Shown one piece after another: positions 4,181 to 47,258 of a stretch of 64,000 nt of DNA. The position numbers were made by a program, and so were the translations under genes. Position 1 is the first letter of the stretch. Every line of letters begins with the position of its first letter. Below the pieces are notes generated by a model, which was not told where the DNA came from, searched no databases, and saw nothing but the letters and a program-made list of their open reading frames with translations. The DNA is from Pelagomonas calceolata (Eukaryota): contig CAKKNE010000001.1 in NCBI GenBank assembly GCA_918797485.1, forward strand, positions 5,890,001-5,954,000, given 5' to 3'.

Positions 4181-6148
4181 CTACGCCACGTCTCGAGCCC
4201 GGTGCCGCGCGACCTCCTGCTTCGCGTGCGCGTTGATCTCCCAGCGCGATAGTTTTCCGTCCCCGTCGAGATCGCCAGCTGCCTCGAGCACCGCCTCGAC
4301 GAGCGTATACTCTCCCGAAAACGTTTCGTAGCCAGCTCGTGCGATCGCATGTTTCAATTCCTTTCGGTTTATCCGCCCGGAGCCGTCCAAGTCCAGCGTG
4401 GCAAATTCTTCAGCCGACAGCCGCCCGTCTCCATCGGCATCAGCCAAAGCGTAGATCCGCTCCCAGAGCCGCCGCGCCCAGTGGCCCACGAGCAACGCGT
4501 GGCACTGGACCCCATCGTCTTCGCCTGGCATGCGCTCCGGATGCGCCGCGAGCTCCTTTCCGATTATCTCGCCGTCCCGCTCTCTCTCCAGCGACTTAAA
4601 CGACGCGACCCGATATATCCGCTCCTCATCAATTGGTTCGCCCCGCACGTGCGTCACGTATCCCTCCCCATCGACCGTAATCCCGTCGTCGATCTGCATA
4701 TATCCAGGATTAGCGTGGCCCCACCGCTCACGCACGCCGTGCTTCAGCGCATGACCTGTGCGGAAATGTAAGTTCACGGCGCCTTCGCGCTGAATCATTG
4801 CGTCGAACCCCACGTCATCAACGCGACGTCTGCTCGATGGCGTCGTCGCGGGGACAAGATCTCTACACAGCGCATGACCGGAAAGCTTATACACGTTCAC
4901 GTCGTCCTTGGCTTGGATCTCCGCCCTCAACGTTTCTAGCGAGACGTACGCGTCATCGTCATAAGCCTTGGCGGCGCGCGGGCAGGACGCGCCCTTGATG
5001 ATGCAACAATCCACGGTGTCCCTGTACGCGTTCAAAGCGTCCCGGATCTCGGAAAGTAGAAACGCGCCCATCGTCACGAGTTGGCCCCGCGAATCGACGG
5101 ATGAGAGCGGCCTGTATTTTTCGGGGACGACGGCCAGCTGCGTATGGCGCCTGTGTGGATATCAAGCTCGACGCCGTCGAGCAGATTTCGCGTCGGTGGC
5201 GTGAAGGGACGTCCGCGCCGGCTCGCGCATCTTATCCAACACCGCATACGCCTTCGCCGCGGCGAGGGCGAGGTCGCCGTCCGCTTTGTACGACGCGACT
5301 TGCGCGACGTGGGCGTCGATATTCAACTTCGGATCCCATACTAAGTCCACGATCTGGGCATGGTGCGCGTCCATGCCCGGTTTTATGATGCGCGTGCCCT
5401 CGACCACTTTATCCACTATATGGTGGTCGTGGCCCGACAGGATGAGGGGAAAGTCGAAGTCCCTTGCCGTTTTTTCATCTTGATCCTCGTACAAGTGGCA
5501 CAGCGGCAGGACGAGGTCGGCCCCCTCTTCATGAAGGCGCGGCGCCCACTCCGCCAACGTCGCCCAGGGGTCTAGGATCTGAGCGCCGTTGAACGCGCCG
5601 GGCTTCGGCGACGTGTGCGACGTGACGCCGAGCATGGCGATTCGTTTCGAGCCGACCGTGAGCCACGCGTGCGTCGCCTGGCACGCGGAACCTTCGACAG
5701 TTTCGTGCGTCGGCATGTTCGTGTTGAGCCATGTGCCCTGGTACTCGCGCTCCCGCGCGAAGACATCAGCCGGCGACAAATTATCTTCGTGGTTGCCCCA
5801 GATCAAATAATCGACGGGCGTGCGGTTCAGCATCTTCATCATCCCGCGGCCCTTGTCGATGGCCGAGAGGAGGTAGGGCATCAGAAAGTCGCCCGTCAAC
5901 ACGCTGATCGTGACGGCGTCCGGGCCGTGCTGCTGCTCAAATTCCTCTCGTTTTTCGACGATCAACGTCTTCAGGTGCGGGAAATTATCTAAAGTGTAGA
6001 CGTCCGTGACATGAATGATTCTTAGCGCTGCTGCGGGCGTCGTCGACGAGGCGCAGCGCACGAGGCTGGGTGCGGCCGCGCCGTTGCGTGCAGAAGCCAC
6101 GCGGGGCCTCGCAGCCAAGGTCCTCGACGACAGCGCGAAGCGCCGCAT
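4181..6148 (-). CDS. 5'-nucleotidase-type metallophosphoesterase with C-terminal EF-hands (2 exons)
   Basis: Motifs HVTDVY, GDFL, GNHE, CHL and GHDH. EF-hand loops DADGDGRLSAEE, DLDGSGRINRKE and DLDGDGKLSRWE. Two in-frame ORFs are joined by a 78-nt intron at 5151-5228. The Arg/Ala/Ser-rich N-terminus resembles a mitochondrial presequence. Confidence 0.85.
5151..5228 (-). other. Predicted GC-AG intron with introner-like 3' end
   Basis: Reads gcgcgagc...ttgatatccacacag. Removal deletes the in-frame stop and gives LDKM-RHTQLAVVP. The 3' end matches the TIR of the element at 47100-47258. An upstream GT donor in the same phase cannot be excluded. Confidence 0.7.
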
Positions 6149-25639: not shown

Positions 25640-25796
25640 CGGGGCTGCGCAAATGCGATTTTGCGCCAAGATTTTAGCTAAATTTAGCAAATGCGTTCCC
25701 TCCGGGTTCTAGTAAGAGAAGCCTGCACACCGCGAAACCGCTCGCGAGCGCTGTGCACGATACATGACGCACGCGGCGCGCGGTACGGACGATACT

Positions 25797-27566
25797 ATGA
25801 ACCTGGACGAGACGGTGACCACACCGCCCGAGAGCGAGTCGCGAGCCGATGCTCCCGGTCCGACGTGGCCCCCGCGGCCGCGGGCGTCGGGCGGCCAGCG
25901 CTGGACCGACAGCGACAGCATCAAGCTCAAGGTCGCCTACGACAAGAGTCCGAGCAACTGGACGCTCATCGCCGCGCAGTTCGACAACCGCACGCCGGGC
26001 GCGTGCCGCGACCGCTACCGCACGATGTACGACGAAGCCGACTCGGAGTCCAAGTCCGACGAGAAGCGCGGGCCCGCGGCGGCGCCCGCCGGCGATCAGC
26101 CGCCGAAGAAGAAACGGCCGCCCAGGTGGACGCCGGGCGAGGACGCGGAGCTGCGGCGCCTCCACGCGGAGCACAGTAAGACCCCGTCCAAGTGGGACGT
26201 GATCGCGGCGGCGATCGGCACGCGACGAACAGCGTCAGCGGCCGAGCACCGGTGGGCGATTATCAAGAACAAGAACGCCACGGCGCCGGCGGTCACGCGC
26301 GCGCTCGCGGCGTCGGACGACGACGTGGCCTCCTCGGACTCGCCGACGCCGACGCCGCCGTCGGCCAACGAGGCGCCGCGGCTCGCGGCGCAAACATCAG
26401 TGGACTTGCGCGAGGCGCGGCCACCAGTGGACCCTTCGATAAGGGCTACGGTCGAGCGCATGGTCGCACAGACTGCAAAACCGGACGAGACGCCGTCCGC
26501 CGCCGCGACCGCGTGGATTTCACGGTCCGAAGGCGACGCTGCCGACGCGGCGTCGGAGACGATCGGACGCCTGGGAATCGACCTCGTGTCGACCATGGCG
26601 CGGCCTCCGCTGCCGCCGAGACGCCCGCACGAGCCTCCGCGAAAAACCTCAAAGCCCGGCCCCTGGTTCCAGTTCTGGCTCGAGAACGACGCGGCGGCGT
26701 CGGAGGAGTTTTGGAAGACCCTGGGCGAAACCGAAAAGCGGCCGATCCGCGTGCTCTGGACGCGCAAGTACGAGGAGAGCTTACGGGCTTCGGGCCAGAG
26801 CCCCCGACTCGAAGCGCCGCCGGCGGTACCGCTCGCGACGCAGCAGCGGACCAAGGGCGCCACGACGCCTGACACTGTATCTGAGTCGGTGCCCGCGCGG
26901 GACGAGACGAGCTCGAAGGTGCGCTCTTGCCCGGACTCCGCCGACGAGTCCGAGAAGGAAGCTACCCCACGTGTGTGGGCTCTGTTCGAGGCGGATCCAG
27001 GTATCCAACGGTGGTGGGGCGGGACAGTCGTCGGCGCGAGCGGCTCCGGAGCTTCGCGTGTTCTTGATATTGTGTTTGATGACGGCGAGCGGCTAGGCAT
27101 ACTCGAGCAGCGTGTGAAGACGGAGCAGCCCATGCCGCTGCCCATCAATACCCCAACAGCGGCAGCCAAGAAACTTCTCCGAAAGCTCTCGGGCCGGCGG
27201 CCGAGGAAGCGGGCGCGGCGCTCTACGCCTGTCGCCACCCACGGCCGCTCGACGCGGACGAGACGCGGGCCAGCAAAATCCTACGCCCAATCCGATAGCG
27301 ATAGTGATGACGCTGCCGAACGGCCGCGTCCGCCGCCGCGTTCGCCGGGGCCGCTCCCCAAAGACTCGACGTGCTGCATTTGCCTCGACCCGGTTCTGCG
27401 CCGGCGCGACGCGATCATCTTCGAGTGCGAGCATTTCGTTTGCAAGAGCTGCTCGTCTGATTTGGCCCGGCACACGGCCGAAGCCGGCGCCGTCTCGACG
27501 CGGCGCGGCGTCTCGGTGGCGTGTCCACTTTGTCGGCGGCGGGCGAAGCTCGAGATCTCTAACTAA
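25797..27566 (+). CDS. Myb/SANT x2 + HMG-like + Tudor-like + RING protein
   Basis: Myb: WTDSDSIKL...WTLIA...CRDRY and WTPGEDAEL...WDVIA...AEHRW. HMG-like: PWFQFW...FWKTLGETEK. Tudor-like: VWALF..WWGGTV..IVFDDGE. RING: CCIC...CEHFVCKSC...CPLCR. Confidence 0.85.
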   Translation: MNLDETVTTPPESESRADAPGPTWPPRPRASGGQRWTDSDSIKLKVAYDKSPSNWTLIAAQFDNRTPGACRDRYRTMYDEADSESKSDEKRGPAAAPAGDQPPKKKRPPRWTPGEDAELRRLHAEHSKTPSKWDVIAAAIGTRRTASAAEHRWAIIKNKNATAPAVTRALAASDDDVASSDSPTPTPPSANEAPRLAAQTSVDLREARPPVDPSIRATVERMVAQTAKPDETPSAAATAWISRSEGDAADAASETIGRLGIDLVSTMARPPLPPRRPHEPPRKTSKPGPWFQFWLENDAAASEEFWKTLGETEKRPIRVLWTRKYEESLRASGQSPRLEAPPAVPLATQQRTKGATTPDTVSESVPARDETSSKVRSCPDSADESEKEATPRVWALFEADPGIQRWWGGTVVGASGSGASRVLDIVFDDGERLGILEQRVKTEQPMPLPINTPTAAAKKLLRKLSGRRPRKRARRSTPVATHGRSTRTRRGPAKSYAQSDSDSDDAAERPRPPPRSPGPLPKDSTCCICLDPVLRRRDAIIFECEHFVCKSCSSDLARHTAEAGAVSTRRGVSVACPLCRRRAKLEISN

Positions 27567-27810: not shown

Positions 27811-30800
27811 ATGGACGACCTAGACGCGTGGCTGGGGACGAGCCTGGGACCTGAAAACCTTCGGGCCGAGGTAAGACAGGCCTGCGGAGGGTCCTTGGAA
27901 GATCTGCAATCGTGCGAGCTCGAGGATCTCGAGAGCGAACTGTCGCTGAGTACGTGGCCGCCGCTAGAACGACAACGCTTTTTGAGGGCGTGGCGCGAAC
28001 TGAGAGGGGAGAACGACGTCGACGACGCCGACGACGCCGCGCTTGACGACGCCGCGGCCGACACGGACGAGGACGAGCCGGCGGAAGCGCCGCAGCCGCC
28101 GAGCCCGGCGCCGGCGCCGGCGCCGGAACCAGTGAGCCCGCCGCCGCCGGCCTTACCCGCACCTGCTGAGGGACCGCGCTACCAGGTCGGCGATCAAGTA
28201 GAGGCGAGGTGGAAGGGCGGCGAGCGGTATTACCCTGCGCTGGTCCTGGTCGCCCGCGTGGACGGCAGCGTCGACCTCCGCTACACGGACGACGACACGG
28301 AGAGCCGCGTGCACCCCTCGCTGCTGCGACCGCTATCGCGCCGGCGGGGCCGGGCGCGGCGAGCGCCGCCGCCGCCCGCGCCGGTTGCGGAGTCCTCCGA
28401 CGCGGAGTCGGAGCCTGCGCCGGCCGAGCCCGAGCCCCTTGCTTCGCCGATGGCGGAGGAGCCGTCCGACGCCGAGTCGGAACCCGCGGAGCCCGCCCCT
28501 TCGCCGATGGCCGAGGAAGAGCCCGTCGCGCCGGAGTCGGAGCCTGCAGCGCCGCCCGCGCCCATGCCGGAACCGATGGCCCCGGAGTCTGACGAGCCCA
28601 CGGCGCCCGCGCGACCGCCCACGCCAGAACTAGACGTCAAAGCGGGAAAGGAGCGCTCCCGGCGGGAGCAGAGCGAGATGGACCGGGCGCTCGAGGCCGG
28701 GCGCGCCGCGGCGCTTGCGGCCGCGGCGGCGGTTGACGCAGCCGAGGGGTCCGCGGTCGAGGCGACGTCGAACGCGTCGGAGGCCGTTGCGGCGGACCGC
28801 GCGGCGGCCGGCGACCGGGCCGTCGCCGCGGCCGCCGGCGCGCGTGCCCACGCGGCGGGGTCGTGTCGCACGGCCACCGCGACGGTCGTCGACGCGCTGG
28901 ACAAGGCCGATGCTCTGCCGGCGCCGGTCGCGACGACCGAGCCCGAGGCGACGGAGCCGCCACCAATCTCCACGCCGGCGGTAGAGCTGGCGCCGCCCGC
29001 CGCCGCGCGGACGCCGTCGCCCGCGCCCGTGGCGCCCGACGAGCCGGCGCCGATGGACACAACGCCGTCGCCGGCCCATGACGCGCCGGCCGCGGCCGCG
29101 AGCGCGATGGACGTCGACGCGACGGAGACCGCGAGCGTCCTGGACCGCCTCAGAGCGGACATGGTGCGCACCGTCGACATTGCGAGTCGACACAATCGCC
29201 CGCCCAACGTAGACTGGCGGATTGGGCACACCTACAGCTTCCTAGGGGCAATGCATGCCCTGGGCGCCGACACCAGGGCGACGCTCGCTGAAGCTCTTAT
29301 CAGGGGCCGTCGCGGCGAGATTGAGCCCAGCACCGCGCGGCGGGCCGTGGCTCGGATCCTCGACGGGAATCTCAGGACGCTCGAGCGCTTCCAGCACACG
29401 CTCAGGCAAATTAGCGCGCCGATCGCGTCCGCGGCGACAGTGTCGTGGTACGATCCAGCCTCCGGCGTCGATCTGTACGCGTATGCTACTTGTGGTGCTG
29501 CAGCGAAAGAATGGGGCGTGCGCGACGTGGACATCCGCGGATGCGTCGAGGGCAACGTGGACACAGTCAACGGACTGCATTTTCGACGGCAGGCGCGCTG
29601 GCCTGTCCCTCCGGGCGCCGAACGCGTGAGCGAGGGCGTCTATCGCGTCGGAGACGATCGGTACCGCGTGCAGCTCGGCCACGACTGGGGCTTCCTCGGA
29701 AACTTTGATAGTGCTGGAGCAGCAGCGCTGGTGCATGCAGGAGGGTGGGAGCGGCTGCGACACGCGCGGCGCAGCCTCGAGGCGCACACTCTTCGGCAGC
29801 TGACCGAGGGCGCTACGGTTGACCTCAGCGGGTGCTACGTCTTGCTGCGGCGAATCGCCTCAGGCACGAGTTTCCCGACGGCCTTCGCGGTGCGCAAACA
29901 CCGGGTCCCGTTTGCGCCGTTCGACGGGCCCCACGACGCCTACTTCGTCTCTCGGCGTAGGGGGCGGGAGATTCCCTACGGCACGGAACTGTTGAACGCC
30001 CACGTGCAGCGACTTGAACGGGAGCTCACGTGGTGGGATCCGCGGGACCGGTCTCGGGGCCTCTGCGCGCAACGGCTCGTCGCGCGCGACGGCAACCAAC
30101 AATACCACGGATACCAGTACCAGCTTGTACGGCGGGATGGCGACGCCGCCGCTGTCGATGGCGCCGACGCCTCGCTCGTGCAGCTCTGGCGGCGTACGGC
30201 TGTCCCGGCGCCCGTGGCGCCCGCGGTACCGCCCCCACCCGCCGATTGGGCCCAGTGTGCTGCGTGCGACAAGTGGCGAGTCCTACCGGCCAACGTTTCA
30301 GCCGCCACATTATCGGACGACTGGAAGTGTGGCGACATCGGCCTTTCGTGCTCCACGGTGTGAAAATCACGAACTGACGTCGCGTCGATGGCGTGGAGCG
30401 AGACGATGATTCCGCGCAGGTGTTCGAAGGTCGCGTGCTCGCTCGAGGACGCCGACTGTGCGTGTCACCGACGCGGGTGGGACGGCGAAGTGGTGCTGCT
30501 CACTTCTGCGGGCGCCATCACCGCGACGTACTGCTCGCCCGCGGGCGCGGCGGCCGCGCACGGTATGACGTGGCAGGACGCGCAGCGGCGATGTTCGTCC
30601 AAAGCCTTGACGAAAGCGAAGATCGAGTCTAGTACTCCGCCCATCCTGCGCTACGCGACGGCGTGGGATGGCGAAATCAAACGGCGCGAGGCAGCTAAGG
30701 CCGCGACCGAGAAGCGCAAGGTTGCCCAGCAGGCCGCTGCCGCCCGGCAAAAAGACGCGGCGGCAGCGGCTGCCGCCGCGGCGGCCGCGATGGCCGCGCT

Positions 30801-32547
30801 ACGAAAGCCGGCGGAGTGGGCGCAGTGCTCGTCGTGCGAACGGTGGAGGTTACTACCGGAGGGAGCTTCGGCGGCCAGCGACGCCGCTTGGACCTGTGCT
30901 GACGTCGGCGTCTCCTGCGAGAAGGTGCAGTGTTCGGCGGAAGACCCGGAGTGCGAATGTCACGCGCCCGGCGTTGATAGAGCTGTCGTGTCTGTGTCGC
31001 CGGAAGGTCGCATTGTTGAAACCTACTGTTCACCTTCTGGGGCCGCGGCTGCGCTTGGCATGGCTCGGAGCCGCGCCGCCGAGTGCTTAAATACGAGACA
31101 GGTCTCCAAGGTCAATAATGTGCTGCGCTATGCGAAAGACTGGGCCGAAGAAGTCCGAAGCCGTAAAGCGGAGGCGCGGCCGCGCGTTACGTGCACCTTG
31201 TGCCGCAAAGTGCGCGTCGTACCGCCGGGTATTACGATCGAGGACGAGGAGGACTGGAAATGTGACGATGCGCCCGAAAACTGGTTCGCCGCCTCAAACA
31301 CTTTAATGAGGCGCCAGCGCCTATCGTGCGAGACGCGCGAGTGCTCCACTGGCCAGCCGTTCTGCTCGTGTCAGGCAAATATGGGCCGCGGCGTCGATCA
31401 GACGCGTGATGATGGCGTCATCGTGCGACACTGTAGCGTCGCCGCGTGTGCGAGGGCATTGTACCCTGACGCGCCCGACGCCGAGCTCTGGAAGTCAAAT
31501 GTCGTCTCGTGTATCGAGAAGGGCAAACCGTACGCCTACGATAAGGACAACGACGAAAAGGGAAGGGCGTTCAAGGGCTCGACGTTCTCGTGGGCGAGGA
31601 GTGACTGTGCGTATTGCCTAAGCGGCGCGAATCCGGAGACGATATTATTGTGCGACGGCTGGAATTGCGCCAATGAGGCCCATTTCCATTGTGCAGGGTT
31701 AGATGCGATCCCGAGTGGCAAATGGTTCTGCTGCGAGGCGTGTGAGGCGAACCCGGCCCCGGAAGTTAGGTCGCGGAGCGCGCCGACGGGCGATAGGCGG
31801 GGTCGGTGCGGCGCCTGCGACGGCTGCCTCGCAGACGAATGTGGAACGTGCAAGTGGTGCCTCGACCAGACGAAGCGCGGTGGCGCGAACACGCTCCGAA
31901 GGCCGTGCATCTTTCGTCGCTGCGAGCAAGTATACGATGACTCGAAGGCCAGGTTCCGCGCGGCGCGGGGCTCTACCGCGGCGACCGCGCCCGCCGAGGA
32001 GCCCGACGAGCCTGGGCCGGGTACGCGCGTCTGGGCGCTGTTCGACGACGACAGCTTGCCTCAGAGTTGGTGGGGCGGGACGATTATCTCCATTAGTGGC
32101 GTCGCCGAGGAAATGAGGTATGAGGTCGTGTTCGATGATGGCGAGCGGCAGGGCGTCTACGCTGCGCATGTTTTTCACTCGCCGCCGGACGACCCGTTGC
32201 CCGTCTCCGGCCCGAATGCCAAAGCGAAAGCTGTGCTGGAGAAGGCGCTGCCGAAGAAGAAAACACCGGCGCCACGGAAACGGCCAGCCCCGAAGCGGCC
32301 GGCGGCGGACTCCCAGCCGCCATCTCAGCCGCCGCGGCCGCAGATGCCGACCGGGAATTGTCCGGTCTGCTACGAGCCGTTCCGGTCCGGTGAAGTGAAA
32401 TCATTCAATTGCGGGCACCATTTATGTACTACTTGCGGCGAAGCGCTTGCCCGGCACAAGGCCGAGCAGGGCGTGAACACGACGCGACAGGGCGTCCAGG
32501 TCTCGTGCCCACTGTGTCGGAAGCGGGCACGCGTTGGACTGGCGTAG
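27811..32547 (+). CDS. Multidomain chromatin reader / RING protein (SAM, Tudor, NUMOD1-like x4, AP2-like, CW x3, PHD, CXXC, Tudor, RING); 2 exons, 1558 aa
   Basis: An intron at 30360-30419 fuses the two long ORFs. Tudor: VGDQVEARWKGGERYYPA. CW: WAQCAACDKWR. PHD: CAYC...LLCDG.NC..EAHFHC...WFC. CXXC: RCGACDGCLADECGTCKWCLD...CIFRRC. RING: CPVC...CGHHLCTTC...CPLCR. Confidence 0.85.
30360..30419 (+). other. 60-nt GT-AG intron
   Basis: Reads gtgaaa...aactgac...ccgcgcag. Splicing gives CGDIGLSCSTVCSKVACSLEDADCACH, which parallels the internal repeat CADVGVSCEKVQCSAEDPECECH. Confidence 0.8.
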
Positions 32548-32580: not shown

Positions 32581-35529
32581 CTAGCGCGAGCGGCGCTCCT
32601 GTGCCTGACGCTTCCGCGCGTCGGCCGCCGCCTTCTGCTTGGCAGCGTTCTTCGCGCGCGCCTCGGCCGCCGCCTTCGCCAACGCGTCGGGCACGCCACC
32701 CGTGGTCGCCGGCGGCGGCTTGGCGGCGGGCGCCGGCGACGGCGACGGCGCGCTAGGCTTCGGCGCCGAGCCGCCGCCGAAGAGTCCCCCGAAGGGCGAC
32801 GCGTCCTTCTTCGCGGGAGCCGGCGCGGGAGCCGGCGCGGGCTTCGGCTTGCTACCGCCGAACAGCGAGAATCCACCCGCCGGCTTCGGCGCAGGTGCCG
32901 GAGCTTGGGCAGGCTTCGGCGAAGGCTTGCTGCCGCCGAAGAGATTGAATCCGCCACTGCTCGCCGGCTTCGGTGCCGGCGGCGGCGTTGCCGGTTTCGG
33001 CGCCGGCTTGCTCCCAAATAGATTGAAGCCGCCACCCGACGGCTTGGGGGCGGGAGGCGGCGGCGTCGGCCGCGGCGCCGGGCGCGGCCCTCCGAACGAG
33101 AACGCCGGCTTCGGCGCCGGTCGGGGAGTCGGCTTGGCAGCAGGCCGCGGTCCTCCGAAGCTAAATGGTGTCGCGGGCTTAGGAGCCGGCCGCGGCGTCG
33201 GGCGCGGCGCGGGTCTCGGCCCCCCGAAGCTAAACGCAGGCGCCGCGGGCTTGGAGACCGGCCGCGGCGCCGGCCGCGGCCCAAACGAGAAGGCCGGCTT
33301 GGGCGCCGGTCTGGGCGCGGGCGTGGCGATCTTCGGCGGCCCTCCGCCGAATGAGAAAGGAGCTGGCGCGGGCTTCGGCGCCGGCTGCGGCGTCGGCCGG
33401 GGGAAGCTAAACGCCGGCTTGGGCGCGGGCCTCGGCGCCGGCGCCGGGCGCGGGAACGAGAACGCCGGCTTCGGAGCCGGCTTCGCCACGGGCTGAGCCG
33501 CGGGCTTCGGCAGCTCAATCTTCGGCGGCGTGAAATCCTTGAAAGAGTCGGGCAGCTCCGGCAGCTCGAAAGCAGGCTCAGGCTTGATCTCCTCCGGCGG
33601 CGGCCGCGGAATTGCGGCAATTAGGCGAGCTCCTGGCGTGTCGGGCGCCTCGTCGAATACCTCGGTTTCCACAGTAGCTACAGCTATGGCGCCCTTCGGC
33701 TCTTGGACGGGCTCTGGGGGCGGTTTCTCTAGTGCCTCGGCTACCAACGCCTTCTTCTCCTCGGCAGCTTTACGCGCCGCTGCCGAGGCCGCTTCTGACT
33801 GGGCCTTGACCTTCGCCGCAGCCGCTTCGGCGGCGGCTAGGCGCGCCTCGGCCCGCTTGAGGTCCTCGGCCGGGTCGCTCACAGGCGCGGGCTTTTGCGG
33901 AGCTTCACGTTTCGGCGCCTTTACCGTGGTCGCATTTATTTTGGGAAGAGCCCCGGACTGCAGCACCTTCGCCGGGTCCTCCAGAATCGCGGAGAGCGTC
34001 TCGTTCGCCTCGTTGAGGGTTGTCTGCAATTTGGCGTCCGCTTCGTCTGCGGTCTTTTGCAGCTCGGCAGCCGCCTTGTCTAGTTCGTACGTAGCTTCCG
34101 CGACGGCCTTCTCAGCTTCCGCCGCGAGTGCCTTCGGCCCCGCCGCTAGCGTTTCGTACGACGCCTGGGTTGCAGCGAGAGCCTTGTCCAATTCAGCTTT
34201 AGCGTTTGCCACGCCTTTGTCCGCGTCGGCCAGGGCGACCCCTAACGCCGCCTGCGTCGCGTCTAAGGAGAGCACCGTATTGTCGAGAAATTCCGCGGTC
34301 GGTTGGAGTACTGTCTTGTCGAGCTGTTCGTAGGTCTCGACCGCGGCGTCAATGGCGCGGTCCAAAGGCAGCGCAGCCTTCTGGAGCTCCGCGAGATAAT
34401 TCGCCTTCTCGCCCTCGCGGATAACCCACCCCACAGAGCATCTGAAAGCTTTCTCATCCGCATCCACGTAAACTGAGGCCCCTTCCAGGCGCCCAGACGG
34501 CAATAAGACGTCGCACAGTACCCTTCTGGCGTCGTCAGCGGCAATCCTATAGTTACAGAAGGATGCGCCATCAAATGAACCGCCCCAGGGTTGTTGTTTC
34601 GCCGCGTTTTTGAGCGGCATCGCGGCGAAGCCCTCACCCAATACGACGCAGTCGTCGGCAAATAAAGCAGCCGCTACACCATCAGGTAGGGGTGCGCCCT
34701 CCGGCCTCAGAAGGAGCTCTCGCAGAGCCGCGTCCGCGACTCCCACCGCGTCGGCGGCGTCGATCAGAGGCTCTGTTGCAGGGGCGCCGCGCGGCGTCGC
34801 GGGTGTTCGACGCGTGACTAATTCGGACAGAGCCAGTCCCACGTTCAGCCCGCCAAGCTTGCCGCCCATGGCGACCCAGCACGCATCGGCTAGCGTCTCC
34901 ACGCCGCGCGAGCGGTCATCTCTGTCGAGTGGCGCGCCAAGAGTCGCGGCGTAACACTTCCCACTGGCGTCGAAGGCGCACCGGCCGCAGGTCGGCAGCG
35001 TCTTCCAGGGGCCGCTACCCTTTAGGGCGTCTTTATCTTCCAGGCCCTTATAGGGCGCGGACTGGACGCCACTGACGGCGAGCGTAAAGAGCACGGCCTC
35101 GTCATCACCGGGGTCTATCCTAAAATCGGACGCGGCGACTCTCAGAGTATCGCCGCATGCCTCCCTTAGCCGAGCTAGGTCGTCGCTTTTAAGGTACCGG
35201 TCTTTCGTCAACAAAGAGCTGCCCAACTCGAAGGCGAAGTCGTCCTGCAACAGGTCCGGGTTGGCGCGGCCGAAATCATCGACGACGAACGCCTTCGCGA
35301 GCTGGATGCGCCGGTCGACCGGCGCGGGCGCGCTTTCCGGCGCGGCCGGCGCAGCTGCTACGCGAGTTCGCGAGGCACGACTCCTCCGTGCTTGAGAAAC
35401 CTGCGCCGGGCCGGCCGCCGGGCTGCGGGCAAGCTGGCTTAGAGATGGTGCAACAAAGCCTGAGGTCAGCGGCGCGGCGATGGCGAGTGCCAGCAGCCAC
35501 CTCCCGCTGGGGCGGCTGCGAGTACGCAT
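32581..35529 (-). CDS. Putative plastid-targeted protein: two SnoaL-like domains, coiled coil, Pro-rich FSFG-repeat tail
   Basis: Hydrophobic signal WLLALAIAAPLTSG followed by FVAP (bipartite presequence). Two related globular repeats (LLQDDFAF...DFRIDP; LFADDCVV...NYRIAA). About 10 PAPKPAFSF(GG)-type repeats. Confidence 0.75.
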   Translation of the reverse strand: MRTRSRPSGRWLLALAIAAPLTSGFVAPSLSQLARSPAAGPAQVSQARRSRASRTRVAAAPAAPESAPAPVDRRIQLAKAFVVDDFGRANPDLLQDDFAFELGSSLLTKDRYLKSDDLARLREACGDTLRVAASDFRIDPGDDEAVLFTLAVSGVQSAPYKGLEDKDALKGSGPWKTLPTCGRCAFDASGKCYAATLGAPLDRDDRSRGVETLADACWVAMGGKLGGLNVGLALSELVTRRTPATPRGAPATEPLIDAADAVGVADAALRELLLRPEGAPLPDGVAAALFADDCVVLGEGFAAMPLKNAAKQQPWGGSFDGASFCNYRIAADDARRVLCDVLLPSGRLEGASVYVDADEKAFRCSVGWVIREGEKANYLAELQKAALPLDRAIDAAVETYEQLDKTVLQPTAEFLDNTVLSLDATQAALGVALADADKGVANAKAELDKALAATQASYETLAAGPKALAAEAEKAVAEATYELDKAAAELQKTADEADAKLQTTLNEANETLSAILEDPAKVLQSGALPKINATTVKAPKREAPQKPAPVSDPAEDLKRAEARLAAAEAAAAKVKAQSEAASAAARKAAEEKKALVAEALEKPPPEPVQEPKGAIAVATVETEVFDEAPDTPGARLIAAIPRPPPEEIKPEPAFELPELPDSFKDFTPPKIELPKPAAQPVAKPAPKPAFSFPRPAPAPRPAPKPAFSFPRPTPQPAPKPAPAPFSFGGGPPKIATPAPRPAPKPAFSFGPRPAPRPVSKPAAPAFSFGGPRPAPRPTPRPAPKPATPFSFGGPRPAAKPTPRPAPKPAFSFGGPRPAPRPTPPPPAPKPSGGGFNLFGSKPAPKPATPPPAPKPASSGGFNLFGGSKPSPKPAQAPAPAPKPAGGFSLFGGSKPKPAPAPAPAPAKKDASPFGGLFGGGSAPKPSAPSPSPAPAAKPPPATTGGVPDALAKAAAEARAKNAAKQKAAADARKRQAQERRSR

Positions 35530-47099: not shown

Positions 47100-47258
47100 C
47101 TGTGTGGAAATCAAATTTACGGCGCGTTCGCCTCCACGCCATCGACGCGGCACCTGCTCGATGGCGTGGCAATGTCGGGTCCTCACCGCTCGACGGAGCC
47201 AGCGCGGCCACGTTGTCGCCGAGAAATGCACCCGATACAGTGGTTGATTTCCACACAG
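47100..47258. mobile_element. Introner-type MITE, 159 bp, 15-bp TIRs, 8-bp TSD
   Basis: ctgtgtggaaatcaa...ttgatttccacacag is flanked by gtcgccac at 47092-47099 and 47259-47266. Confidence 0.9.

What the first reader, a model, noticed from the sequence alone, without database searches (positions are those of the whole stretch)
27811..32547. 1558-aa protein joining homing-endonuclease-type DNA-binding modules to histone and CpG readers
Seen, after splicing a 60-nt intron: SAM-like, Tudor, four repeats of the form V.....G.....Y.S...AA...G.....I..C....LRY (e.g. VVSVSPEGRIVETYCSPSGAAAALGMARSRAAECL), an AP2-like segment GVYRVGDDRYRVQL....FLGNFDSAGAAA, three CW fingers, PHD, CXXC, Tudor and RING. 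Known: NUMOD1/IENR1 and AP2 modules accompany HNH/GIY-YIG homing endonucleases. Inference: a CW + Cys/His knuckle + NUMOD1-like unit was repeated three times to build a multivalent chromatin sensor with E3 output. I do not recognise this architecture.
Basis: partly seen in the sequence, partly recalled or inferred. Interest (0 to 1): 0.7.

Follow-up and report, generated by a model that had tools for sequence, protein, structure and literature searches.

The report
Shuffled histone-plus-DNA reader cassette, marine alga
This marine-alga gene carries three copies of an apparently undescribed module that joins a histone-mark-reader-type zinc finger to a DNA-binding fold known from phage homing endonucleases, likely through a second zinc site; the same module sits in at least six other protein layouts of related algae, so it likely acts as a reusable chromatin-docking part.

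Summary
The observation largely holds. It is one gene: 18 held proteins in four clusters read straight through the intron position, one 97% identical to exon 2. The intron is a recent introner transposon (8-bp target duplication, inverted ends). Its donor is unresolved: 60 nt gives 1558 aa, 72 nt gives 1554 aa. No spliced read was listed at 1-2x depth. CW, PHD, CXXC, Tudor and RING are found. The NUMOD1-like repeats score below Pfam's cut-off, but repeat 3 folds like the I-TevI/I-HmuI helix-turn-helix. AP2 and SAM rest on pattern only. New here: the repeated unit is CW + three Cys + HTH with a fourth invariant Cys inside the HTH hairpin, likely a second zinc site. This cassette recurs beside homeodomain, Myb, bromodomain, Tudor and RING domains in Pelagomonas-type proteins. 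Caveats: CW3 lacks its cage, the CXXC lacks the CpG-reading Gln, and the RING is broken in one sister cluster. Earlier scan notes report NUMOD1-reader fusions in diatoms. Best reading: non-catalytic chromatin scaffold, probably with E3 activity; function untested.

The parts
27811..30359 (+). Exon 1 (ends at 30347 if the 72-nt intron is used)
   Evidence: colinear with the 1523-aa single ORF P0001
27811..28008 (+). N-terminal helical domain, SAM-like by recalled pattern only
   Evidence: conserved in P0001/P0012; no SAM hit in Pfam or PDB
28180..28335 (+). Tudor domain 1
   Evidence: Tudor_3 E 8.4e-5
28336..29130 (+). Pro/Ala/Glu-rich linker, least conserved part
   Evidence: 5-8 identities per 40 residues at 281-360
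29209..29403 (+). Four-helix bundle, PAH/harmonin-homology-like (predicted)
   Evidence: low-confidence model; VIA Z 6.0-6.7 to CCM2 HHD, SIN3 PAH, harmonin, whirlin; Foldseek SIN3 prob 0.95, E 0.93; no Pfam hit
29434..29589 (+). NUMOD1-like HTH repeat 1 (no knuckle, no hairpin Cys)
   Evidence: PF22083 E 0.087; 9.2 bits vs null 3.3
29629..29757 (+). AP2-like segment (pattern and predicted strands-plus-helix only)
   Evidence: secondary structure; no hit
29812..30195 (+). Unassigned beta-rich domain X, also a mobile module
   Evidence: also in P0066; no usable hit in Pfam, PHROG, Atlas
30244..30657 (+). Cassette 1: CW finger (both cage Trp) + Cys knuckle + NUMOD1-like repeat 2, split by the introner
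30348..30427 (+). Introner insertion: 8-bp target duplication 30348-55 / 30420-27 (6 of 8 alike), 64-bp element 30356-30419 with degenerate inverted ends; intron 30360-30419 or 30348-30419
   Evidence: empty-site alleles
30420..32547 (+). Exon 2
30814..31134 (+). Cassette 2: CW (both cage Trp) + knuckle + NUMOD1-like repeat 3
   Evidence: model pLDDT 72; matches I-TevI, sCTP-23166, I-HmuI HTH and CW fingers; Atlas 0.92 to NUMOD1 clusters
31183..31593 (+). Cassette 3, diverged: CW without cage Trp, knuckle Cys kept, NUMOD1-like repeat 4 with insertions
31603..31743 (+). PHD finger
   Evidence: PF00628 E 2.8e-5, passes cut-off
31798..31923 (+). CXXC finger, 8 Cys, KRGG linker, Arg-Arg-Pro before Cys7
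   Evidence: PF02008 E 7e-10; motif counts
32017..32178 (+). Tudor domain 2
   Evidence: Tudor_5 E 6.6e-7
32359..32520 (+). C3HC4 RING finger

Best explanation
The gene encodes one protein of 1554-1558 residues, likely a nuclear chromatin scaffold with no nuclease, whose core is a three-times repeated cassette predicted to bind a histone H3 tail (CW finger) and nearby DNA (homing-endonuclease-type helix-turn-helix) at once, the two halves likely held together by a second zinc site. Shown: one reading frame in empty-site alleles; the domain order; four invariant Cys beyond the CW finger, the last inside the HTH hairpin; reuse of the cassette in other proteins. Predicted: HTH fold of repeat 3; PAH-like bundle. 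Inferred from known families: cassettes 1 and 2 read methylated H3K4 while the HTHs grip linker DNA; PHD, Tudors and CXXC add avidity; the PAH-like bundle docks a partner helix; the RING ubiquitinates a chromatin substrate. The HTH most likely descends from a mobile-element module long since domesticated in stramenopile nuclear proteins, then fused to CW in the Pelagomonas line and spread by domain shuffling.
For: Read-through alleles in four clusters, on contigs up to 29-475 kb, from a caller that stops at the in-intron TGA in other alleles, so these are intron-less genomic copies. Sense-strand polyA reads over both exons with a 3' gradient. Invariant W30 C32 C39 C44 C51 C53 C76 S77 in 9 of 9 aligned cassettes. 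Among 45 distinct NUMOD-like units, the hairpin Cys is present in 30 of 30 with an upstream CxC and 0 of 15 without (units are related, about one origin against three knuckle-less lines). Model of cassette 2: residues 55-112 match I-TevI HTH (Z 5.1, rmsd 1.9, 47 aligned), Paulinella sCTP-23166 (Z 4.5), I-HmuI (Z 4.4; Foldseek prob 0.99, E 0.022) as the top three rows; residues 1-42 match CW fingers. That HTH binds dsDNA without a nuclease in Paulinella (PMC10319021, section 13 and passages). Two Trp form the CW methyl-lysine pocket (PMC9043364 passages) and both are kept in CW1 and CW2. Cassette in homeodomain, Myb, bromodomain, Tudor and Tudor-RING proteins.
Against: No binding or ligase data. 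All NUMOD Pfam scores are under the cut-off; fold Z-scores are under 8; no Foldseek match reaches E 0.001. No spliced joint listed; reads are near zero over 28010-29260 (76.5% GC). CXXC lacks the KQ/RQ Gln that reads CpG (PMC3685328 passages). CW3 has no cage. Signs of decay in relatives: RING Cys-to-Tyr in 8 of 8 of the P0001 cluster, a CXXC Cys-to-Tyr in 3 of them, and loss of CW2 Cys plus an early end in the P0012 cluster.
Confidence: 0.58

Rival explanations
1. Sequence-specific transcription factor: the four HTHs and the AP2-like segment read a long DNA site as homing endonucleases do, and the readers only tune it.
For: In I-HmuI this HTH makes base contacts over 8 bp (PMC10319021). The cassette also occurs beside homeodomain and Myb domains. 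Repeat 1 is directly followed by the AP2-like segment.
Against: The repeats are separated by CW fingers and long helices, not in tandem; the I-TevI HTH, the best fold match, makes mostly backbone contacts; AP2 is unconfirmed.
Confidence: 0.2
2. The HTH in the cassette no longer binds DNA; with the knuckle it forms a structural lid that completes the CW pocket or binds proteins.
For: CW specificity depends on the variable region after the finger (PMC9043364), which is where the knuckle sits. Recognition helices of the cassette are Ala/Gly-rich and variable.
Against: The whole strand-strand-helix-helix-strand fold is kept; basic residues remain after the second helix in cassettes 1 and 2.
Confidence: 0.14
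3. A young, weakly selected product of domain shuffling with little function of its own.
For: Broken RING, CXXC or CW ligands in sister clusters; low expression; no relative outside Pelagomonas-like sequences.
Against: Folded domains keep 60-85% identity while the linker drifts; the frame is open over 1523 aa at 73% identity; 18 sequences keep an intact RING.
Confidence: 0.06
4. Two genes, or an unspliced insertion that truncates the protein in this strain.
For: No spliced joint listed; an in-frame ATG lies inside the insertion at 30388.
Against: Empty-site alleles are continuous; the insertion has GT, AG and introner hallmarks; it is shared by alleles 84-90% identical whose both halves stay open.
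Confidence: 0.02

Closest known systems
C-terminal HTH (NUMOD1/IENR1 type) of homing endonucleases I-TevI (1T2T) and I-HmuI (1U3E); Pfam PF07453, PF22083
   Same: Fold of repeat 3; weak profile hits; Atlas neighbours
   Different: No nuclease domain; nuclear eukaryotic gene; a Cys in the hairpin tied to an upstream knuckle; scores below Pfam cut-off
Paulinella chromatophora DB-sCTPs (PDB 8B6E; PMC10319021)
   Same: Same HTH, nuclease-free, expanded in a eukaryote, shown to bind dsDNA
   Different: Stand-alone, organelle-targeted, about 50 residues; no histone readers
CW-finger proteins MORC3/4, ZCWPW1/2, ASHH2, LSD2
   Same: Four Cys and two cage Trp in CW1 and CW2; sequence and fold matches
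   Different: Shorter Cys3-Cys4 spacing, no acidic tail after Cys4, finger runs straight into a second Cys cluster and an HTH; no ATPase, SET or demethylase domain
Multi-reader RING or CXXC chromatin scaffolds (UHRF1, CFP1, KDM2B; recalled)
   Same: Tudor/PHD/CXXC readers with a terminal RING: a logic it probably works like
   Different: No SRA, UBL, JmjC or F-box; different order; CXXC lacks KQ/RQ; not an orthologue
Diatom NUMOD1-repeat chromatin proteins (earlier AI notes e1-9543824, e1-7504516; unchecked)
   Same: NUMOD1-type HTHs fused to Tudor, PHD or RING
   Different: As summarised they have no CW-knuckle coupling; other algal class
Aureococcus-type introner elements (10.1101/2022.06.06.494994)
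   Same: 8-bp duplication, inverted ends, presence/absence between isolates; one family leaves 12 nt (4 aa) in the mRNA, as the 60-nt reading here would
   Different: Short, decayed 64-bp copy; the duplication starts with GT, so exact 72-nt removal is also possible

Membership tests
NUMOD1 / I-HmuI NUMOD-like (PF07453, PF22083) | Pfam gathering score | tested here: not met
   best 18.5 bits against 27; repeats 1 and 4 at 12.9 and 11.7
NUMOD1 / I-HmuI NUMOD-like (PF07453, PF22083) | two strands, two helices, one strand, superposing on I-TevI/I-HmuI HTH | tested here: met
   repeat 3 only: top three VIA rows and top Foldseek row; Z 4.4-5.1 on about 50 residues
NUMOD1 / I-HmuI NUMOD-like (PF07453, PF22083) | reciprocal profile match to a protein that passes the cut-off | tested here: met
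   P0044 (PF22083 185 bits) matched both ways for repeats 1-3; repeat 4 not detected
Homing endonuclease (HNH, GIY-YIG) | nuclease domain | tested here: not met
   no nuclease family on either exon at E<=1
AP2 domain | profile or structure match | tested here: inconclusive
   no hit; not among fold rows of a low-confidence model; strands-then-helix predicted
zf-CW | four Cys plus two cage Trp (CW1, CW2) | tested here: met
   definition from PMC9043364
zf-CW | two cage Trp (CW3) | tested here: not met
   Val/Arg at the first and Val at the second position
zf-CW | binds methylated H3K4 | not testable with these tools
   needs peptide binding
Type-1 ZF-CxxC (non-methyl-CpG reader) | eight Cys and KFGG-type linker | tested here: met
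   8 Cys, KRGG variant
Type-1 ZF-CxxC (non-methyl-CpG reader) | KQ/RQ base-reading dipeptide | tested here: not met
   RRP or RKP in 24 of 24 matched sequences; feature from PMC3685328; register to Cys7 recalled
RING-HC E3 ligase | C3HC4 ligands | tested here: met
   intact in the window and 17 relatives; second Cys is Tyr in 8 others
RING-HC E3 ligase | E2 binding and ubiquitin transfer | not testable with these tools
   needs in vitro assay
PHD finger | C4HC3 and Pfam cut-off | tested here: met
   24.5 bits against 24; lacks the Trp of H3K4me3 cages (recalled feature)
PAH / harmonin-homology domain | four-helix fold match | tested here: inconclusive
   10 of the top 13 VIA rows are PAH/HHD proteins, Z 5.6-6.7, on a region with pLDDT under 50; no Pfam hit
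SAM domain | profile or structure match | tested here: inconclusive
   no hit at E<=10 in Pfam SAM families or PDB; not folded
Introner element | target duplication, inverted ends, other copies, empty alleles | tested here: met
   second copy 47100-47258 with 8 of 8 duplication
Introner element | spliced out of the mRNA | tested here: inconclusive
   depth 1.3-1.8x, no joint listed

The most novel reading that the evidence does not exclude
The CW-knuckle-HTH cassette is a new two-zinc composite reader domain: a homing-endonuclease HTH gained a Cys that locks it to a CW finger, making one rigid unit that binds H3K4me and linker DNA together. Pelagomonas then used it as a plug-in to aim homeodomain, Myb, bromodomain, PAH and RING proteins at the same nucleosomes, a lineage-specific chromatin network in one of the ocean's most widespread picoeukaryote groups.
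Probability: 0.35. Interest if true: 0.72.

Novelty: new variant of a known kind. Interest (0 to 1): 0.5.

Why it matters
It would be a clean, small case of a mobile-element DNA-binding fold welded to a histone reader and then spread as one part through a regulatory toolkit. The 120-residue cassette is easy to express, so coupling of histone-mark and DNA reading can be tested directly. It also gives a named entry point into pelagophyte chromatin, on which the searches here found almost nothing. The general themes (reader domains are labile; mobile-element DNA-binding domains get co-opted) are in print, so the surprise is moderate.

Tried and rejected
No genome is held for this window, so copy numbers in the own genome are unknown. 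Word shares of unlaid runs were not used as evidence. Loose ends and the opposite-strand joint at 30378-30398 come from the repeat motif and were set aside. Metagenome locus scan: 3 of 49 stretches, each a 21-residue match at E 5e-4, rejected as chance. Viral contigs: 0 of 42 pattern hits confirmed. Phage tblastn with repeat 1 + AP2-like: best E 0.4, a protein with no Pfam family, rejected. PHROGs: only E 0.1 and 0.36. K-box hit on the N-terminus (E 0.002) and GPSM2 hits on the AP2-like segment (E>0.2) rejected as chance. Atlas on AP2-like + domain X: no usable hit. Foldseek on model 1: nothing at E<=0.001; domain X and the AP2-like part were barely tested by that search. I first favoured the 72-nt intron alone; one search made the 60-nt reading equally plausible. 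No complex prediction was run: no histone sequence was on hand. Literature: 8 searches. One search found 53 papers with NUMOD/IENR1 words, 40 listed, none by title or abstract on a nuclear chromatin protein. No listed paper describes this cassette. Subscription papers, 13 unlisted hits and supplements (for example domain tables of the Pelagomonas genome paper and of the chromatin-evolution preprint) were not seen. Huff et al. 2016 was not held; PMC11282704 and PMC12130899 had no pelagophyte passages. Own-findings look-ups by sequence, place and two word sets returned nothing.
Full report
Setting. The window is gene-dense, about 63% GC, with eukaryotic housekeeping genes (NatC subunit, THOC3, kinases, Brix). 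The stretch is held by runs of one coded organism and, at shares of 0.17-0.23 that I did not lay, by marine metatranscriptomes. A protein of a paralogous family found here is named as Pelagomonas calceolata 'CW-type domain-containing protein'. I infer a Pelagomonas-type pelagophyte alga.

One gene or two. Exon 1 runs from 27811 into a TGA at 30361; exon 2 runs to 32547. A search for longer relatives of exon 2 gave P0001, a single 1523-residue frame, 73% identical to exon 2 and 62% over exon 1 residues 370-850. Of 122 proteins held, 18 in four clusters read through the junction, 5 stop inside the insertion and 11 start inside it. P0057 reads through and is 97% identical to the first 182 residues of exon 2. 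Contigs of the read-through clusters reach 29-475 kb, and the same gene callers stop at the in-intron TGA in other alleles, so these are intron-less genomic copies (inference). In 4 of 4 stranded polyA runs, reads lie on the sense strand over both exons, falling from 13-30x at the 3' end to 1-5x near the junction; no joint reached the listing threshold of three reads. Splicing is therefore inferred, not seen.

The intron. It is an introner: 8-bp duplication at 30348-55 and 30420-27 (6 of 8 alike), a 64-bp element with decayed inverted ends, and a younger copy at 47100-47258 with a perfect duplication. Two readings fit. A donor at 30360 leaves 12 nt, four residues, in the mRNA; this is what an Aureococcus sp. 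introner family does (10.1101/2022.06.06.494994, passages), and both differences between the duplicates are silent. A donor at 30348, the GT that starts the duplication, removes 72 nt and restores the empty-site protein exactly; recruitment of the 5' site from the duplication is described in the same passages for other algae. A third 72-nt pair (30358-30429) also keeps the register.

Domains. Pfam supports Tudor, three CW, PHD, CXXC, Tudor and RING. The four NUMOD-like repeats score below cut-off. Three other lines agree: ESM Atlas puts repeat 3 next to NUMOD1 clusters (0.92; 10 of 10 best hits share the family or clan); profiles match both ways between repeats 1-3 and P0044, a true NUMOD1-repeat protein, above 400 shuffles; and the model of cassette 2 (pLDDT 72) superposes on the HTH of I-TevI, Paulinella sCTP-23166 and I-HmuI before anything else. 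AP2 and SAM have no profile or structure support. Two parts were missed: residues 467-531, whose low-confidence model draws mostly PAH and harmonin-homology bundles, and residues 668-795, a beta-rich domain of no known family that also occurs in P0066.

The cassette. Nine aligned copies keep W30, C32, C39, C44, C51, C53, C76 and S77. C32 and C39 complete the CW site. C44, C51, C53 and C76 are four further Cys, the last in the HTH hairpin. The His after the CxC is kept in 33 of 41 distinct motifs and replaced by Gln in 7 and Tyr in 1. The hairpin Cys is present in 30 of 30 distinct units with an upstream CxC and in 0 of 15 without, among them repeat 1 of this protein (units cut off at a protein start or without the motif were dropped; the units are related, so this is one gain, not thirty). 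A second zinc site joining knuckle and HTH is the simplest reading; geometry could not be measured.

Spread. HMMER over 1.84 billion representatives gave 26 hits at E<=0.001, and a profile search gave 24 among 7,989 scored candidates. Besides copies of this gene, the cassette occurs in six other layouts: PAH-like (by eye) + cassette + Tudor (P0036, 59, 60, 62, 63, 68, 72); domain X + cassette + Tudor + RING (P0066, 92); homeodomain + cassette (P0061, 93); unannotated N-terminus + cassette (P0035, 58, 64); cassette + two Myb (P0065, 86, 88); cassette + bromodomain (P0040, a fragment). P0097 shares the homeodomain half of P0093 but has no CW hit, as shuffling predicts. The gene upstream (Myb-Myb-Tudor-RING) shares the C-terminal 209 residues at 34%. 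Only one member carries an organism name; none was found in viral contigs. The range is probably narrow, but both searches have limits.

How it likely works. CW1 and CW2 keep the two Trp that form the methyl-lysine pocket (PMC9043364, passages); CW3 does not. The HTH family binds dsDNA without a nuclease (PMC10319021, section 13 and passages). A zinc link would fix the spacing between an H3-tail pocket and a DNA-binding helix, so each cassette would dock on a marked nucleosome and its linker. The CXXC has all eight Cys but Arg where type-1 domains have the CpG-reading Gln (PMC3685328, passages), so 'CpG reader' is uncertain, although Aureococcus has a DNMT5 methyltransferase (PMC3145265, passages). 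Output is probably a partner on the PAH-like bundle and ubiquitin from the RING. The RING is broken in one sister cluster and another cluster is truncated with a damaged CW2, so output parts may be dispensable. All of this paragraph is inference.

Against what is known. Most reader genes lack catalytic domains, 92% carry one reader type, readers expand by lineage, and mobile-element DNA-binding domains are often co-opted (10.1101/2021.11.30.470311, passages). This protein, with three histone-reader types plus CXXC, is in the minority class but fits the theme. Earlier notes of this scan report NUMOD1 repeats fused to Tudor-RING and PHD in diatoms (unchecked), which lowers the novelty of the fusion as such. 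The Pelagomonas genome paper (PMC9481584, passages) mentions introner-length introns and has no 'zinc finger' passage in its main text. Eight paper searches listed nothing on the cassette. It works like a multi-reader RING scaffold; it is not a homing endonuclease, not a type-1 CXXC by the full test, and not a Pfam-level NUMOD1 or AP2 member.

Verdict. Real gene, real architecture, new variant of a known kind. The piece worth following is the mobile CW-knuckle-HTH cassette. Interest 0.5.

Noticed in passing
window 25764-27566 (+): Upstream gene Myb-Myb-Tudor-RING shares its Tudor-RING end with the finding (34% over 209 aa) and a linker motif with the P0059/60/63 family; part of the same shuffled toolkit, expressed several-fold higher.
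   Followed up: partly
window 47100-47258: Young introner copy, 159 bp, perfect 8-bp duplication and 14-bp inverted ends; it has GT and AG on both strands.
   Followed up: partly
window 15713, 54133, 56802, 5151-5195: Further copies of the introner core motif or ends.
   Followed up: no
P0044 (1834 aa, unnamed, 23-kb contig): Protein with about ten NUMOD1 repeats and no nuclease or other Pfam family.
   Followed up: partly
P0039 / P0122: Three knuckle-less HTH repeats (weak I-TevI DNA-binding hit) plus a CW finger: a second way of pairing the same two parts.
   Followed up: no
window 29812-30195 and P0066 residues 237-370: Domain X: 128-aa beta-rich module with no family hit, moving between proteins.
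   Followed up: partly
P0012 cluster: Sister copy with a 17-residue internal duplication in the AP2-like segment, lost CW2 cysteines and an end inside knuckle 2: possible decay or a second intron.
   Followed up: no
window 32581-35529 (-): 982-aa protein with a long Pro/Ala/Phe-Gly repeat tail and no Pfam family.
   Followed up: no
window 25992-26024: Hundreds of RNA reads from another Myb-like transcript lie on this 33-base stretch with loose ends, inflating depth there.
   Followed up: no
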